A stretch of DNA of 64,000 nt from the human T2T-CHM13v2.0 reference genome, Homo sapiens. Made by a program: the position numbers and the translations under genes. Within the stretch, counting starts at the first letter, position 1. The number at the start of each line of letters is the position of its first letter. The notes beneath the pieces were generated by a model, which was not told the origin of the DNA, made no database searches, and saw nothing but the letters and a program-made list of their open reading frames with translations. The stretch lies in assembly GCF_009914755.1 (NCBI RefSeq), contig NC_060930.1; one strand, 5' to 3'. Positions 9,001 through 15,000 of the stretch are shown piece after piece.

Positions 9001-12000
9001 AGACTACATGCTGTATGAATCCACTTTTCTGAAATTCAGGAAAAGGCAGAACTATAGGGATGGAGAATTAACTTTTTACCAGATGTTAAGGGTCAGGGAG
9101 GGCTAATAGGAGCAGCTTGAGGGAGTTTTAGGGGGTGACAACTGTTCTGTGTCTTGATTGTGATAGTTACATGCATGTATATTTGTTAAATTCATAGAAA
9201 TGTATACGAAAAGAGTGATTTTTACTAAATATAAATTTAAAAATAAACCTAAAATAACGGAATTCATTATTCTTGTCTCAGAAACAAGCCGATATGTAAA
9301 CACAACAACCACTACTCTGATCCTCCATCCGTATTCTCTGTCTTATGTTATCTTGCCATACTACTCAGATGGCTCAGTTAAAAACCATGGAGTCATCCTC
9401 AACTCCCTTTTCTTCCTCACCAGATATCTGTTACATTCATTTGGCCTCTAATTTTTACTGAATCAATTTCAGAAATATTTCTAGAATCCAACTTGTCTTC
9501 TATGTTTTCATTGTAGTAACTTGTTTAGTTCACGCCTTCAGCATCTTTCCTATCTCTCTCTCTGAACTATGTAAAAACAACCTTTTCCTTAATTTGTTTA
9601 ATTCTATTCCTTAGGATCAAGTCCAAATTTCACAGCTGCATTATAGGAACCATATGTCCTCTAACCTACCTTTATAGCTTTATGTTCTGCCATGCATCCT
9701 CATTTTGGACACACTTAGTCTCTTACTGTTCTTGGTTATGCAAGGCTTCTTCAAAAACTTTGCCTTTGCATATATTCCTTCTGCTTGAAATGCTTGATTC
9801 TCCCCATTTCTCTTTCCTGTTTTTCCTTTAAAATAGGATACCCATGAAGCTTTCAGAAGTCCCTAAGGCACAATTAGTTGCCATATCTTCACTGCTCTCT
9901 CAAGATTTAAAGCATGTATTTTAGTGTACTCCTTACAATAAAATTTGCCAATTCATTAGTCTGTCTCTTCAATATCAGGGATGGCAGACAGATGCCAGCC
10001 TCTCCTTCTCTTGTGTTTACTTCATAAGCTAATTGGTCACAACATTGTCTCTGGTTGGACATGGATATGTCCTCTGAATTTAACAGAATAACATACTGGG
10101 TACTCACTATCTACTGTTAAACTGAAGTTGGCACCCTGCTTTAGGCAGATTTTGTGTGTGTGTGATGTGTAAGTCCAGAATAGGTTATAATATCAGTATT
10201 TTAATATTCCTATAAGATAATATCAAGATATCAATACTGTTACATTGTTAAAGTTTATAATTCACTTTCTAAAAGTAAAACTAGCACATATATTCAAATA
10301 TGAAATATATTTGCATATATTTTATGTATTTATAAAATAGGTATATAAATGTTAATGTTTTAAAATACATTTGCAATAAAACTACTTAAAAATAAAGTAT
10401 ACATGTATTTTAGTATTTCAAAAGAACTAATTATACTGGAGTACTAAAAACTGATATTGTAGTCATAATTCAAGTCCTGACCCTTGTGGCCATAGCTCTT
10501 AAGGCAATGCCTTCAGTAAGTGAAAGAAGCCAGACCCCAATAAATATTTGAGATGTGCTTACTGGAGCCTAATATCATATTTCATTAAAAATAAGATACT
10601 TCAAAGCTGGTTATTTCTTGATCTAGCCAGAAACTGTAATTTAGAAGACTTTTTTTTTAACCCAAATAATTCATGATTATTTCCTGACAGTAATTATGTT
10701 TCAGAAAGGTTAAAACACTGTGGGGGCTAGGGAGACAGGAAAGGTTGTTGCATCTTAGAATCAATAAGATAGGGTAAACTTTGTCTTTGTTTAGACCAAA
10801 ATTATTTGTTTAAGATATTATTTCTAAAATATGTGGTCATTTTGCTCTAATCTTGATGTGGAATTAAGGGAATGTATTCTTTGTACATAATTTTCAGAAT
10901 GGGTTTTGTTGACCTGTTAATCAGTGAGCCTGAATTTAGTTGCTAGATTAAGTGTCTCATGTTGTTTTGAGAGAGTGAGTTATCAGTGTCTGTTTTCTTT
11001 TCTCCTTCCTTTAAGATGCCATGGCTAGTCCAGGGAAAGATAACTATAGAATGAAAAGTTATAAGAATAAAGCCCTAAATCCTCAAGAGATGCGTAGACG
11101 AAGAGAAGAAGAAGGAATACAGCTTAGAAAACAAAAAAGAGAAGAACAGGTAGGTGTTTTTAGCTATTTAATTTTGTTTTTTAAAATTTTAATTATTTGC
11201 TAATTATTGGATAATTTTAAATGGAAATGTTTTAAGAAATTGAATATAGCTAAATCTATTATTTATTAGACTCCAGGCATCATAATTGCAAATTTGTGAA
11301 ACAGAACTCTGTGCTACTTTAGTCACTGGGAGAAATGGATTTTCTGTTTTATTGATAAACCTGTTGTGTTAATTATATTTTTACCCTACTGCTAGGAAAT
11401 TTTTCCTCTTGCATCTATTTAGATCACTTCCATTTGTCATTGTAAAATTTGCCCCTTAAAGAAACATTAATTATATATTATTTGCTGCTTTGTAGTTTTC
11501 ATAATTCTTGCCCGTAAGTAAATTATTGTCATCTTCCCATGCTATTCATACTGTTCCCCCATTGTCTTATTAGCTGGATCTCTGTTTATACTTTTCATAT
11601 GTGACATAAAGAATATAAAATTGTTTAAGAGAGTACATCTCAACATTTTTTATTCCAAGATGTACTTAAATGTAGAAGTATTTGTAAGTAAGTAAAATAA
11701 TGTGGTTCTCACACATGTGAATTAAAACTGATGTATGAAAAGGACTAGCAGTGAAGAAAGTAGAAAAGGCCTATTCTCTTCTATTGTATTCTATTCTATT
11801 GTATTCTGTAAGTAGAGATGGGGTCCTGCTATGTTGCCCAGGCTGGTATTGAACTCCTCGCCTCAAGCAATATTCCTGCCTCTGTCTCTCAAAGTGCTAG
11901 GATTACAGGCATGTAATAGGCAAGGCCTATTTCAGAAATATGATAATGATTTCTCATCTCCCTATCTACAGCGTCTAACACAATCCTTCATACATTATAG

Positions 12001-15000
12001 TAGGTACTAAAAAAATTGTGTTGAATAAATGATTAGAAGGAAGATTGTTTACATATTAAAGAAGAACAGGCTGGGAGCCCTGGCTCACCCCTTTAATCCC
12101 AGCACTTTGGGAGGCTGAGGCGGGCGGATCACGAGGTCAGGAGATTGAGACCATCCTGGCTAACAAGGTGAAACCCCATCTCAAAAAAATTAGACATGCG
12201 TGGTGGCTGGCGCCTGTTGTCCCAGCTACTCAGGAGGCTGAGGCAGGAGAATGGCGTGAATTCGGGAGGCAGAGTTTGCAGTGAGCCGAGTTGATGCCAC
12301 TGCACTCCAGCCTGGGCGACAGAGTAAGACTCCATCTCAAAAAAAAAAAAAAAAAGAAGAACGATATTTATTTAGATGTCAAAAAGAATATAAGCAGATT
12401 TTGTTTTCCTCAAATTTTGATTTAGGAAATGTAGAGTTATCCCTTGGTTCCAGGATCCTCTGCAGATATCAAAATTCACTGATGCTCAGGTCCTTTATGT
12501 AAAATGGCATGGTATTTGCATATTACCTGCACACATCCTCTTGTATATTTTGAGTCATCTCCAGATTACTTATAATATCTAATACAGTGTAAATGCTGTG
12601 TAGTTGAGTTGTTATACTGTGTTGTTTTAAAATATGTATTATTGTCGGGCTCAGTGGCTTATGCCTATAATCCCAGCACTTTGGGAGGCCTAGGTGGGCG
12701 GGTCACCTGAGGTCAGGAGTTTGAGACCAGCCTGACCAACATGGTGAAACCCCGTCTCTACTAAAAATAAAAAAATTAGCCGAGCATGGTGGCGCACGCC
12801 TATAATCCCAGCTACTCAGGAGGTTTAGGCAGGAGGATCGCTTGAACCCAGGAGGTGGAGGTTGCAGTGAGCCGAGATTGTGCCACTGCACTCTGTCCTG
12901 GAGACAGAGCGAGACTCCGTCTCAAAAAATAAAATAAAGTGAAATAAAATATGTATTATTTTTTATTTTCGTATTTTGTTGTTGTTGTTTATTTTTAAGA
13001 GATGGGGTCTTGCTGTGTTGCCCAGGTTGCCCTCCAATTCCTGGGCTTGTGCAGCCCTCCCACCTCAGCTTCTCAAGTAGCTGAGACCAGAGGCACGTGC
13101 TGCCATGCTTGGCTTATTATTTTTTATTGTTATTATTATTTTTGATCTGAGGTTGGTTGAATCTGGGAATGTGGAACTCACAGATATGGAGGGCCAACTG
13201 TACCTATAAATCTCCTTTAGTGAACTCACCATGTTTCTTTCTTCTTTTTTTCTGCTTCATTTTTATCTGCTCCTGAATTAATAAGCATAGTACTGTCATT
13301 CCTAAGATTTGTTTTCTATTCCTTGTTAATCAGATATACTAAATCTGTTAATGTATCAGATGTTATCTTTCATATGCAACAGATGTGCTTTTTAAGTTTT
13401 CTTGCAAAAATTCTTAGATACCTCATAATCCAGTGTGTAAATATGTGCTTTTTTAAGTGCTATAAAATGACCATGTGTATTCCACTTACACGCTTACTGT
13501 TGGTAAAAGATCTGAGATTGAAAGTGACGTGAAGTAGTCTGTGCAGCCAAAAGCTAGCCCAGAAATTTGACTTCTCATAAATACCTTAGATCTTCCTAGT
13601 ATAATGATTGGGAAATACTCAAATATTCAGAATTTTAAGTTATAAAATTGATAGGTTTCTTTTGTCCACTCAAATGAAAACATGGAATTCTATGGCAACT
13701 TAATGTTTTATGGAAAGCTCAATGTGTAAACTGATTTCTCTTTATTACAGTTGTTCAAACGCAGAAATGTCTATTTGCCCAGAAATGATGAATCTATGCT
13801 TGAAAGTCCTATACAGGATCCAGATATTAGTTCCACTGTACCCATTCCAGAGGTATACTTTACCAAAATATGTTTCAAATTATACCTCAATAATTTTAGC
13901 AATAGTATGTATAACAAATATTTATGCATGCAAAATTATTCATGTAAAATATGTAAATGTTAATTATATTTTTGTGTGTGTGTTTTAGGAAGAAGTTGTT
14001 ACTACAGATATGGTTCAGATGATTTTTTCTAATAATGCTGATCAACAGCTAACAGCAACACAGAAATTTAGAAAGCTGCTTTCTAAAGGCAAGAATTATT
14101 TTCAGTATGCTTATTTGATATTACACGATTTTTTAGTAGAGGTTTATTTTATTGTTTTTTTTTAAATTTTAAAATACCTTTCTTTGCTAGACACAGGTGT
14201 TATATTCTCTGCAAAATATATTGTAAAGTAACATCCGTTTTTGAACATGATGTTACCAAAGTAACATATGTTGACTGTAGAAAAATCGTAAAAATATAAA
14301 AGCAGTTAAAGAGGCAAATATAAAAAGATTAATCCTGCTGCCAAGAAATAAGGTTAGAGATATATATTTTTTAATTCTTGTAGAAATATTTTTCAGACAT
14401 GATTTTTTATTTTTATTTGTATTTATTTATTTTTTATTTTTTTGTTATACTTTAAGTTTTAGGGTACATGTGCACAACGTGCAGGTTTATTACATATGTA
14501 TACGTGTGCCATGTTGGTGTGCTGCACCCATTAACTCGTCATTTAACATTAGTTATATCTCCTAATGCTATCCCTCCTCCCTCCTCCCACCCCACAACAG
14601 GCCCCGGTGTGTCATGTTCCCCTTCCTGTGTCCATGTGTTCTCATTGTTCAATTCCCACCTATGAGTGAGAACATGCGGTGTTTGGTTTTTTGTCCTTGC
14701 AATAATTTTCTGAGAATGATGGTTTCCAGCTTCATCCATGTCCCTACAAAGGACATGAACTCATCCTTTTTTATGGCTGCATAGTGTTCCATGGTGTATA
14801 TGTGCCACATTTTCTTAATCCAGTCTATCATTGTTGGACATTTGGGTTGGCTCCAAGTCTTTGCTATTGTGAATAGTGCCGCAATGAACATACGTGTGCA
14901 TGTGTCTTTACAGCAGCATGATTTATAATCCTTTGGGTATATACCCAGTAATAGGATGGCTGGGTCAAATGGTATTTCTAGTTCTAGATCCCTGAGGAAT

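What the first reader, a model, noticed from the sequence alone, without database searches (positions are those of the whole stretch)
11016..14088. Exons 2-4 would form a 336-nt stop-free circular ORF encoding endless IBB repeats
Seen: exons 2+3+4 = 134+102+100 = 336 nt = 112 codons. Exon 4 ends with a single G and exon 2 starts with AT, so a back-splice gives ...TCT AAA G|AT GCC ATG... (S-K-D-A-M) in frame, with no stop and an optimal gccATGG start 6 nt past the junction. The block is compact (3.1 kb) and flanked by long introns (8.0 and 6.3 kb), with a sense Alu at 3683 and an antisense Alu at 16648 able to pair across it. Known: stop-free circRNAs of length 3n can undergo rolling-circle translation; the IBB domain binds importin-beta and its KRR motif occupies NLS grooves. 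Inference: the product would be a multivalent poly-IBB importin-beta/NLS-site sponge. I have an unverified recollection that a KPNA5 circRNA of this span is catalogued.
Basis: partly seen in the sequence, partly recalled or inferred. Interest (0 to 1): 0.85.

Follow-up and report, generated by a model that had tools for sequence, protein, structure and literature searches.

The report
KPNA5 exons 2-4 stop-free circle
The three exons that encode the importin-beta-binding end of human KPNA5 add up to a multiple of three, so a circle made from them has no stop codon, but this is a common arithmetic property of coding exons and nothing shows that the circle is translated.

Summary
Exons 11016-11149, 13751-13852 and 13989-14088 total 336 nt. 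Joined head to tail, one frame has no stop, the junction reads S-K-D-A-M, and an in-frame gccATGG lies 5 nt past the junction. The unit covers the whole Pfam IBB profile.

It is not unusual. The block lies between two phase-1 introns. In KPNA5, 27 of 78 internal exon blocks are multiples of three, and all 27 are stop-free as circles. On chr6, 15276 of 35359 coding exon blocks (43%) are multiples of three. KPNA1 and KPNA6 have the same phase-1/phase-1 layout.

The circle very probably exists. One paper's table lists a KPNA5 circRNA spanning exactly 3072 nt in RNase R-treated THP-1 RNA.

The proposed Alu pair is real but weak: about 72% complementary, duplex -221 kcal/mol, against -523 for a competing pair inside intron 1.

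I found no evidence of translation, concatemers or any effect on import. Free IBB behaves as an importin-beta import signal. Published rolling-circle products are mostly degraded.

Verdict: ordinary coding exons, a catalogued low-level circRNA, and an untested rolling-circle ORF candidate.

The parts
11016..11149 (+). KPNA5 exon 2 (134 nt). Its first two bases complete the Asp codon. It encodes the N-terminal half of the IBB domain, including the RRRR motif.
   Evidence: RefSeq exon. Sequence and splice sites. The translation 11018-11149 matches Pfam IBB profile positions 1-34 of 89, E 5.5e-12, 46.4 bits. It also matches PDB 1qgk chain B, the IBB in complex with importin-beta, E 1.9e-4.
13751..13852 (+). 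KPNA5 exon 3 (102 nt, phase 0 at both ends). It begins with the L-F-K-R-R-N-V autoinhibitory segment, followed by the acidic or variable linker.
   Evidence: It has no Pfam match on its own and no paralog match in the genome at E up to 10.
13989..14088 (+). KPNA5 exon 4 (100 nt). It ends with one extra G, the first base of the next codon. It encodes the end of the Pfam IBB profile, which is the first ARM helix.
   Evidence: Pfam IBB positions 69-89 of 89, E 0.0023, 18.8 bits, below the 23.8 cut-off on its own. It matches the N-terminal ends of IBB-deleted importin alpha-5 and alpha-7 crystal chains 3tj3, 2jdq, 6wx9 and 4uad.
14089..14094 (+). GC donor of intron 4 (gcaaga). This would be the donor used in the back-splice.
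   Evidence: The homologous donors of KPNA6 (gtacaa) and KPNA1 (gtgagc) are GT.
11014..11015 (+). AG acceptor of exon 2. This would be the acceptor used in the back-splice.
11021..11023 (+). In-frame ATG in a GCCATGG context. It is the candidate start on the circle.
   Evidence: It is the annotated start codon of NM_001366307.2.
11016..11018 (+). Out-of-frame ATG at the very start of exon 2. After back-splicing it has A at -3 and opens a 12-codon ORF that overlaps the in-frame ATG.
   Evidence: frame 0 translation and ATG list.
3032..3035 (+). The natural start codon plus one G, the last 4 nt of exon 1. The linear exon 1-exon 2 junction therefore makes the same G|AT Asp codon as the back-splice would.
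   Evidence: coding parts.
13853..13988 (+). Intron 3 (136 nt, not a multiple of three). If retained in the circle it ends the ORF.
   Evidence: With intron 3 retained, every frame has stops, and the ORF from 11021 ends after 113 codons.
3681..4046 (+). Sense dimeric Alu in intron 1, 6970 nt upstream of exon 2.
   Evidence: Masked repeat. Sub-threshold 7SL (RF00017) matches at 3683-3797 and 3880-4025 on the + strand.
5266..5908 (-). Two antisense Alus in intron 1 (about 5266-5592 and 5606-5908). They are the best pairing partners of the 3681 Alu and of the intron 2 Alus.
   Evidence: Duplex energy is -523 kcal/mol with 3681-4046, and -467 and -482 with the intron 2 Alus.
7591..7919 (-). Third antisense Alu-like element in intron 1.
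   Evidence: 7SL match at 7783-7912 on the - strand.
12070..12364 (+). Sense Alu inside intron 2, within the circle's genomic span.
12644..12940 (+). Second sense Alu inside intron 2.
16641..16869 (-). Truncated, diverged antisense Alu in intron 4, 2.55 kb downstream of exon 4. It is the only Alu in that intron.
   Evidence: Masked repeat. 7SL match at 16663-16811 on the - strand, 36.2 bits. It is 72.7% complementary over 172 nt and 69% over 114 nt to the 3681 Alu.

Best explanation
These are the ordinary N-terminal coding exons of KPNA5 (importin alpha-6). They lie between two phase-1 introns, so their summed length must be a multiple of three and the host reading frame closes on itself when the block is circularised. 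The stop-free circle is a by-product of intron phase, inherited from the common ancestor of KPNA1, KPNA5 and KPNA6. A back-spliced exon 2-4 circRNA is very probably made at a low level, as it is for thousands of genes whose early exons are flanked by long introns. Most likely it is a minor splicing by-product. Any translation is expected to be rare and its product short-lived. Shown here: the arithmetic, the domain content, the paralog architecture, the Alu map and one published back-splice record. Inferred: low abundance, lack of function and the fate of any product.
For: The arithmetic and frame are. 27 of 78 KPNA5 exon blocks are multiples of three and all 27 are stop-free circles. 15276 of 35359 chr6 coding blocks are multiples of three. 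905 of 2287 blocks of like geometry are multiples of three, in 225 genes. KPNA6 and KPNA1 show the same acceptor-side 2-nt overhang and the same donor-side ...AAA G| overhang. Fan et al. 2022 (PMC9242994, passages read) report that 14% of full-length human circRNAs carry a host-frame rolling-circle ORF. A back-splice of identical span appears in PMC8403398 Table 3, from RNase R-treated RNA-seq. It has no circBase ID and is not among the 13 circRNAs that paper validated by qRT-PCR. The cross-flank Alu pairing is weak and out-competed. The proximal 1-kb flanks are no more complementary than control intron windows: 13 of 22 controls were as low or lower. Six searches found no paper linking any KPNA5 circRNA to translation. 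KPNA5 is not mentioned in the main text of Fan et al., the immunopeptidomics study PMC10943130 or the 30-circRNA infinite-ORF test.
Against: Several features would suit a translated circle. The in-frame ATG has a strong context and RefSeq uses it as a start. The hexamer AAGAAG, shown to drive circPFAS rolling-circle translation, occurs 3 times in the circle against 0.34 expected from base composition, although there it encodes the conserved R-E-E-E-G and E-E-V residues. The flanking introns are long. The circle was the top up-regulated entry in one RNase R data set. The closed frame is kept in three paralogs, which could reflect selection, not just inherited intron phase. Abundance was not measured here, and supplements that might hold read counts or junction peptides are closed.
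Confidence: 0.8

Rival explanations
1. The exon 2-4 circle is translated around and around from the gccATGG, giving poly-IBB chains that tie up many importin-beta molecules and NLS grooves of importin-alpha, and so damp classical nuclear import.
For: The circle is stop-free with a strong in-frame ATG. The unit holds a complete IBB with the RRRR and KRR motifs. [quoted passage not shown] IBB-containing fragments inhibit import when over-expressed: the Ei24 IBB-like domain and the truncated importin alpha-2 CanRch1. AAGAAG elements are present. The back-splice has been recorded.
Against: There are no translation data for this circle. IBB fused to a reporter is imported with importin-beta, Ran and energy, so importin-beta is recycled and not trapped. 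Ei24's sequestration was attributed to the cytoplasm/ER, and its unanchored N-terminal part was largely nuclear. The circle's unit has no evident anchor, judged from the translation and not formally tested. Rolling-circle products of circPSAP and circPFAS were degraded by the proteasome. An out-of-frame ATG 5 nt upstream opens a 12-codon ORF. Importin-beta is an abundant protein (recalled, not from a call), so a rare, cap-less RNA is unlikely to titrate it. Ladders from over-expression vectors can come from linear concatemers (abstract of bioRxiv 10.1101/2021.03.23.433163).
Confidence: 0.03
2. The circle is translated occasionally for one or a few laps, giving IBB-only polypeptides that are quickly degraded or imported and have no regulatory role. 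At most they are a source of junction peptides for antigen presentation.
For: Fan et al. report low abundance and rapid degradation of most circRNA-coded products, and low processivity for circPSAP. HLA-presented junction peptides from infinite-ORF circRNAs (CDC73, HSP90AB1) have been reported.
Against: There is no direct evidence for KPNA5. The fully tryptic junction peptide is a substring of the linear protein's N-terminus (it lacks only the Met), so existing proteomic searches could not separate the two easily.
Confidence: 0.1
3. The circle acts as a non-coding RNA (miRNA or protein decoy), as the literature claims for another KPNA5 circRNA, hsa_circ_0130438.
For: Review tables list circ_0130438 (circKPNA5) as down-regulated in rheumatoid arthritis, with a miR-130a-3p/KLF9 axis. 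KPNA5 circRNAs are differentially expressed in several data sets.
Against: The exon content of hsa_circ_0130438, hsa-KPNA5_0009 and the T-ALL circKPNA5 could not be established. The JMML isoform is named circKPNA5(3-12), a different circle. A 336-nt low-copy RNA offers few binding sites. I ran no site analysis here.
Confidence: 0.07

Closest known systems
Endogenous circRNAs with rolling-circle ORFs: rcORFs of Fan et al. 2022 (circPSAP, circPFAS, circABHD12), hsa_circ_0111569 of CDC73, hsa_circ_0076651 of HSP90AB1
   Same: They are exon-only circles made of host coding exons, with a length that is a multiple of three, no stop in the host frame and an in-frame AUG. The IRES-like hexamer AAGAAG is present.
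   Different: Those have junction-spanning peptides and/or tagged-reporter ladders. The KPNA5 circle has only one back-splice record and no translation evidence.
Ei24 and CanRch1 (truncated importin alpha-2), negative regulators of nuclear import acting through an IBB or IBB-like domain (PMC4018778)
   Same: They are IBB-type segments with an RRRR motif, without a functional cargo-binding ARM body. When over-expressed they lower importin alpha/beta1- and beta1-dependent import.
   Different: They are single-copy domains made from capped linear mRNAs. Full-length Ei24 sits at the ER, where the authors place the sequestration. The KPNA5 product would be a soluble tandem repeat of unknown stability, made from a cap-less RNA.
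IBB-reporter fusions (importin-alpha IBB fused to beta-galactosidase)
   Same: The isolated importin-alpha IBB is sufficient to bind importin-beta (which cites Weis 1996 and Gorlich 1996).
   Different: These behave as import cargo released by RanGTP, which is the opposite of a sink.
Inverted-Alu-driven exon circularisation (the competition model of complementary sequences; recalled from Zhang et al. 2014, not read here)
   Same: There is a sense Alu upstream and an antisense Alu downstream of the circularised block.
   Different: There is only one cross-flank pair. It is about 72% complementary and lies 7.0 and 2.6 kb from the splice sites. It competes with three within-intron inverted partners, the two tested together giving a duplex more than twice as stable.

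Membership tests
circRNA with a rolling-circle (infinite) ORF, as defined in Fan et al. 2022 Methods | The back-splice junction is observed in RNA. | tested here: met
   Tested by literature only. PMC8403398 Table 3 lists 6:116689320|116692392, KPNA5, from RNase R-treated libraries. The span of 3072 equals 14088 minus 11016, and no other annotated KPNA5 exon pair falls within 30 nt of it. Caveats: the genome build and the caller are not stated in the passages I read, that paper did not validate this circle by PCR, and I could inspect no reads.
circRNA with a rolling-circle (infinite) ORF, as defined in Fan et al. 2022 Methods | The circle has no stop codon in one frame, and the ORF is at least 20 aa. 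| tested here: met
   336 nt, with 0 stops in frame 2 over two laps.
circRNA with a rolling-circle (infinite) ORF, as defined in Fan et al. 2022 Methods | There is an in-frame start codon. | tested here: met
   There are six in-frame ATGs, the first at 11021 in a GCCATGG context.
circRNA with a rolling-circle (infinite) ORF, as defined in Fan et al. 2022 Methods | There is evidence of translation across the junction (peptide, footprint) and of concatemers. | not testable with these tools
   No reads or spectra are available. KPNA5 is absent from the main texts read. Supplementary tables are closed.
IBB domain (Pfam PF01749) | Match to the profile above the curated cut-off. | tested here: met
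   The exon 2 piece scores 46.4 bits against a 23.8 cut-off, on profile positions 1-34. The exon 4 piece scores 18.8 bits on positions 69-89. Together they span positions 1-89.
IBB domain (Pfam PF01749) | A polybasic RRRR motif and a KRR autoinhibitory motif. | tested here: met
   Both motifs are visible in the translation. Their roles are described in passages of PMC4018778.
IBB domain (Pfam PF01749) | Binds importin-beta. | not testable with these tools
   The only support is homology to the 1qgk chain B IBB peptide.
Inverted-repeat (IRAlu) driven circRNA | Reverse-complementary repeats in both flanking introns. | tested here: met
   3681-4046 (+) and 16641-16869 (-). Complementarity is 72.7% over 172 nt and 69% over 114 nt. 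No hit appears at E 1e-5 with default scoring.
Inverted-repeat (IRAlu) driven circRNA | Cross-flank pairing is at least as favourable as competing within-intron pairing. | tested here: not met
   -221 kcal/mol across the block against -523 within intron 1. The intron 4 Alu pairs with the intron 2 Alus at -244 and -250.
IBB-type negative regulators of nuclear import (Ei24-like) | IBB or IBB-like segment with RRRR that binds importin-beta1. | tested here: met
   Met at the sequence level only.
IBB-type negative regulators of nuclear import (Ei24-like) | Retention outside the nucleus, so that importin-beta is held and not recycled. | tested here: inconclusive
   No anchor is evident in the 112-residue unit on reading its translation, and I ran no formal membrane or retention-signal prediction. 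The unanchored Ei24 N-terminal part was largely nuclear, yet it was still sufficient to inhibit import when over-expressed.

The most novel reading that the evidence does not exclude
The closed reading frame of the IBB exon block, kept in KPNA1, KPNA5 and KPNA6, is used. The exon 2-4 circle, perhaps favoured in KPNA5 by its slow GC donor, would be translated from the gccATGG with the help of its AAGAAG elements. The result would be tandem IBB chains acting as high-avidity competitors for importin-beta, a circRNA-encoded brake on classical import in cells where KPNA5 is transcribed.
Probability: 0.03. Interest if true: 0.7.

Novelty: new member of a known kind. Interest (0 to 1): 0.25.

Why it matters
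If the circle were translated as proposed, a transport-receptor gene would encode, from the same exons, both an adaptor and a repetitive competitor of that adaptor. That would be a clean case of a functional rolling-circle product. As things stand, the value is mainly cautionary. A stop-free circular ORF is what any exon block between introns of equal phase gives: 43% of coding blocks on chr6 and 27 blocks in KPNA5 alone. So it should not be scored as a signal by itself. Two practical points follow. First, the back-splice uses a GC donor, so callers that insist on GT-AG may miss this circle, which may be why the one record has no circBase ID. This is an inference, and the callers' rules are recalled, not read. 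Second, the junction codon is identical to the linear exon 1-exon 2 codon, so only a missed-cleavage peptide can distinguish the circle's product from the normal N-terminus.

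Tried and rejected
1. I tried to identify other catalogued KPNA5 circRNAs. These were hsa_circ_0130438, circAtlas hsa-KPNA5_0009, circKPNA5 in T-ALL and a bovine KPNA5 circRNA. None of the passages gives exon content or human coordinates, so I could not tie them to exons 2-4. circKPNA5(3-12) in JMML is a different isoform.

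2. The primary T-ALL paper (PMC7724907) is not held.

3. The hg19-converted coordinates that I guessed by offset gave no hits. A listing hit for '116689320' in PMC13090184 was not found in its main text.

4. No circKPNA1 or circKPNA6 paper appeared among the 15 listed of 30 hits. Those listed concern circKPNA2 and circKPNB1 and propose no coding mechanism, judging from titles and abstract starts only.

5. I looked for non-Alu complementarity next to the splice sites. The proximal 1 kb by 1 kb duplex energy is -273.6 against a control mean of -286.1 (sd 19.5), and 13 of 22 controls were as low or lower. I rejected this as a driver of circularisation.

6. The first search for IBB dominant-negative literature gave 3 papers, which I did not read. 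The second gave the Ei24 and snurportin papers that I used.

7. I did not predict a structure or run Pfam on the whole 112-residue unit, because that would need a joined sequence typed into a tool. I searched the three exon translations separately by reference.

9. Items recalled from memory and not taken from any call: the GRCh38 position of KPNA5 (about 116.68 Mb, which would place exon 2 within about 25 nt of the published start); the GT-AG requirement of some circRNA callers; the Alu competition model; the abundance of importin-beta.

Full report
WHAT IS THERE. The finding covers exons 2, 3 and 4 of KPNA5 (importin alpha-6) on the + strand. Read directly, the exons are 11016-11149 (134 nt), 13751-13852 (102 nt) and 13989-14088 (100 nt), 336 nt in all. 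All three acceptors are AG. The donors of exons 2 and 3 are GT, and the donor of exon 4 is GC (AAG|gcaaga).

I joined the exons head to tail inside a script. The host frame has no stop in two laps. The other two sense frames have 8 and 32 stops in two laps, and the three antisense frames have 11, 2 and 6 per lap. The junction codon is G|AT (Asp), giving S-K-D-A-M. The first in-frame ATG (11021) lies in GCCATGG, and RefSeq uses it as the start codon of NM_001366307.2. In the main transcript the start codon is the ATG in the last four bases of exon 1 (3032-3035, ATGG). The linear exon 1-exon 2 junction therefore makes exactly the same Asp codon as the back-splice would. The flanking introns are 7980 and 6312 nt, and the internal ones are 2601 and 136 nt.

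WHAT THE UNIT ENCODES. I searched the three exon translations separately by reference. The exon 2 piece matches Pfam IBB (PF01749) positions 1-34 of 89 (E 5.5e-12, 46.4 bits). The exon 4 piece matches positions 69-89 (E 0.0023, 18.8 bits, below the cut-off alone). The exon 3 piece matches nothing.

Against solved structures, the exon 2 piece aligns with the IBB peptide of 1qgk, the importin-beta complex. The exon 4 piece aligns with the N-terminal ends of IBB-deleted importin alpha-5 and alpha-7 crystal constructs, which is the start of the ARM body. The 112-residue unit is thus a whole IBB (with the RRRR and KRR motifs), a linker and an orphan first ARM helix.

IS IT MORE THAN CHANCE? No. The block lies between two phase-1 introns. 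Any such block has a length that is a multiple of three and closes the host frame on itself.

- In KPNA5's own main transcript, 27 of 78 contiguous internal exon blocks are multiples of three. All 27 are stop-free as circles, and 22 of them contain an in-frame Met.
- Over the 1006 'select' transcripts of chr6, 15276 of 35359 blocks of one to six wholly coding internal exons (43%) are multiples of three.
- With the same geometry as here (150-1000 nt, both flanking introns at least 5 kb), 905 of 2287 blocks in 225 genes qualify.
- Fan et al. 2022 (PMC9242994, passages read) report that 14% of full-length human circRNAs carry a host-frame rolling-circle ORF.

The property is also not specific to KPNA5. 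A genome search with the IBB profile and with the exon 4 peptide found the homologous exons of KPNA6 (chr1) and KPNA1 (chr3). Both show a two-base overhang before the conserved N-terminus and the same ...AAA G| end before the donor. Their blocks must therefore also be multiples of three. I inferred those exon 2 acceptors from the sequence, since no exon annotation for those chromosomes was available. Only KPNA5 has the GC donor.

DOES THE CIRCLE EXIST? Very probably. Table 3 of PMC8403398 (passages read) comes from RNase R-treated RNA-seq of THP-1-derived cells. Its top up-regulated circRNA is 6:116689320|116692392, gene KPNA5, with no circBase ID. End minus start is 3072, exactly 14088 minus 11016. 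Among all annotated KPNA5 exon starts and ends, this is the only pair within 30 nt of that span.

There are caveats. The passages I read do not state the build or the caller. This circle was not among the 13 that the paper validated by qRT-PCR. A log2 fold change of 6.8 is what near-zero counts produce. Supplements are closed.

Other KPNA5 circRNAs are in print, but their exon content could not be established. These are hsa_circ_0130438 in rheumatoid arthritis tables, circAtlas hsa-KPNA5_0009, circKPNA5 in T-ALL, circKPNA5(3-12) in JMML, which is clearly a different isoform, and a bovine one.

THE ALU ARGUMENT. Local BLAST and sub-threshold 7SL matches give the following Alu map:

- Intron 1: one sense Alu (3681-4046) and three antisense Alus (about 5266-5592, 5606-5908 and 7591-7919).
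- Intron 2: two sense Alus (12070-12364 and 12644-12940).
- Intron 4: one truncated antisense Alu (16641-16869).

It gives no hit at E 1e-5 with default scoring. With permissive scoring it is 72.7% complementary over 172 nt and 69% over 114 nt. The predicted duplex energy is -221 kcal/mol. The 3681 Alu pairs with the antisense Alus of its own intron at -523. Intron 1 with intron 2 gives -467 and -482, and intron 2 with intron 4 gives -244 and -250. In the competition model of complementary-sequence-driven circularisation (recalled, not read here), this layout favours linear splicing or other circles over exons 2-4.

The 1-kb stretches next to the two splice sites are no more complementary than control intron windows: 13 of 22 controls were as low or lower. 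The long flanking introns, and possibly the slow GC donor, remain the only features favouring back-splicing. The role of the GC donor is an inference.

WOULD IT BE TRANSLATED, AND WOULD THE PRODUCT BE A SPONGE? Nothing found bears directly on this. Six literature searches returned no paper on translation of a KPNA5 circRNA. KPNA5 is absent from the main text of Fan et al., of an immunopeptidomics study of circRNA peptides (PMC10943130) and of a preprint that tested 30 infinite-ORF circRNAs.

In favour:
- The ATG context is strong.
- The hexamer AAGAAG, which Fan et al. showed to drive circPFAS translation, occurs three times in the circle against 0.34 expected from base composition. However, it lies in codons for conserved residues.

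Against:
- An out-of-frame ATG at the first base of exon 2 gains an A at -3 after back-splicing. It opens a 12-codon ORF that overlaps the in-frame ATG.
- Retention of the 136-nt intron 3 would end the ORF after 113 codons.
- Rolling-circle products of circPSAP and circPFAS were degraded by the proteasome, and most circRNA products are of low abundance.
- Ladders from over-expression vectors can arise from linear concatemers (abstract).

On function, there is real precedent that IBB-type fragments inhibit import when over-expressed. Ei24's IBB-like domain and the truncated importin alpha-2 CanRch1 both lowered importin alpha/beta1- and beta1-dependent import (PMC4018778, passages). The authors attribute full-length Ei24's effect to holding importin-beta in the cytoplasm/at the ER. 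The unanchored N-terminal part of Ei24 was largely nuclear, "like the IMP-alpha IBB ... a modular NLS", although it was still sufficient to inhibit import when over-expressed.

Importin-alpha IBB fused to beta-galactosidase is imported with importin-beta, Ran and energy (PMC2173342). A soluble poly-IBB would therefore be a multivalent cargo whose importin-beta is released by RanGTP, not a sink. To matter, it would have to approach the level of importin-beta, which is an abundant protein (recalled).

VERDICT. The stop-free circle is an arithmetic consequence of intron phase, and it is shared with two paralogs and with hundreds of exon blocks on this chromosome alone.

The best explanation (confidence 0.8) is ordinary coding exons plus a low-level circRNA by-product. 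Rolling-circle translation into a poly-IBB import brake is not excluded, but nothing supports it and known IBB biology argues against it (probability about 0.03). It counts as a new candidate member of a known kind, rcORF circRNAs. Interest is 0.25.

LIMITS. No reads, Ribo-seq or spectra could be examined. The primary T-ALL paper is not held. Duplex energies of long RNAs are rough and are used only for ranking.

Noticed in passing
window 14088-14094: Intron 4 of KPNA5 is a GC-AG intron (AAG|gcaaga). The homologous donors in KPNA6 and KPNA1 are GT. circRNA callers that require GT-AG could miss back-splices from this donor. That last point is recalled, not tested.
   Followed up: partly
window 3032-3035 joined to 20401 onward: Exons 2-4 lie between two phase-1 introns, so skipping them also keeps the frame. 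This gives 1284 nt (427 codons plus stop, no internal stop), which would encode an IBB-less importin alpha. No RefSeq model skips them, but three Gnomon models (XM_054355383, XM_054355384, XM_054355385) start downstream and also lack the IBB.
   Followed up: partly
window 11016-11018: An out-of-frame ATG at the first base of exon 2 opens a 12-codon ORF that overlaps the in-frame ATG at 11021. It is present in both the linear and the circular context.
   Followed up: yes
window 7098-8948 and 14547-16156: Same-orientation repeats of 77-82% identity (about 0.5 and 1.0 kb) are shared by intron 1 and intron 4. They lie inside masked repeats and are probably fragments of one family of interspersed repeat. 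Being direct, they cannot pair.
   Followed up: no
window 3798-3879: The sense Alu at 3681-4046 has an expanded A-rich middle linker made of short AAAATAC-like units (sequence printed). The Alu lies inside an annotated hESC enhancer element, 3489-4470.
   Followed up: no
window 3878-3929, 5409-5460, 12191-12242, 16762-16813 and others: Sub-threshold Rfam matches to the miRNA families mir-1268, mir-1285, mir-3135 and mir-1303 fall inside the Alus. All are below gathering scores (best 67.4 against 83) and are most simply explained as Alu sequence.
   Followed up: no
G000 chr1:32012518-32015341 (L001, L002) and chr3:125183179-125215830 (L003, L004): KPNA6 keeps the compact layout, with the exon 2 and exon 4 homologues 2.8 kb apart. 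In KPNA1 they are 32 kb apart. Both keep the closed frame.
   Followed up: partly
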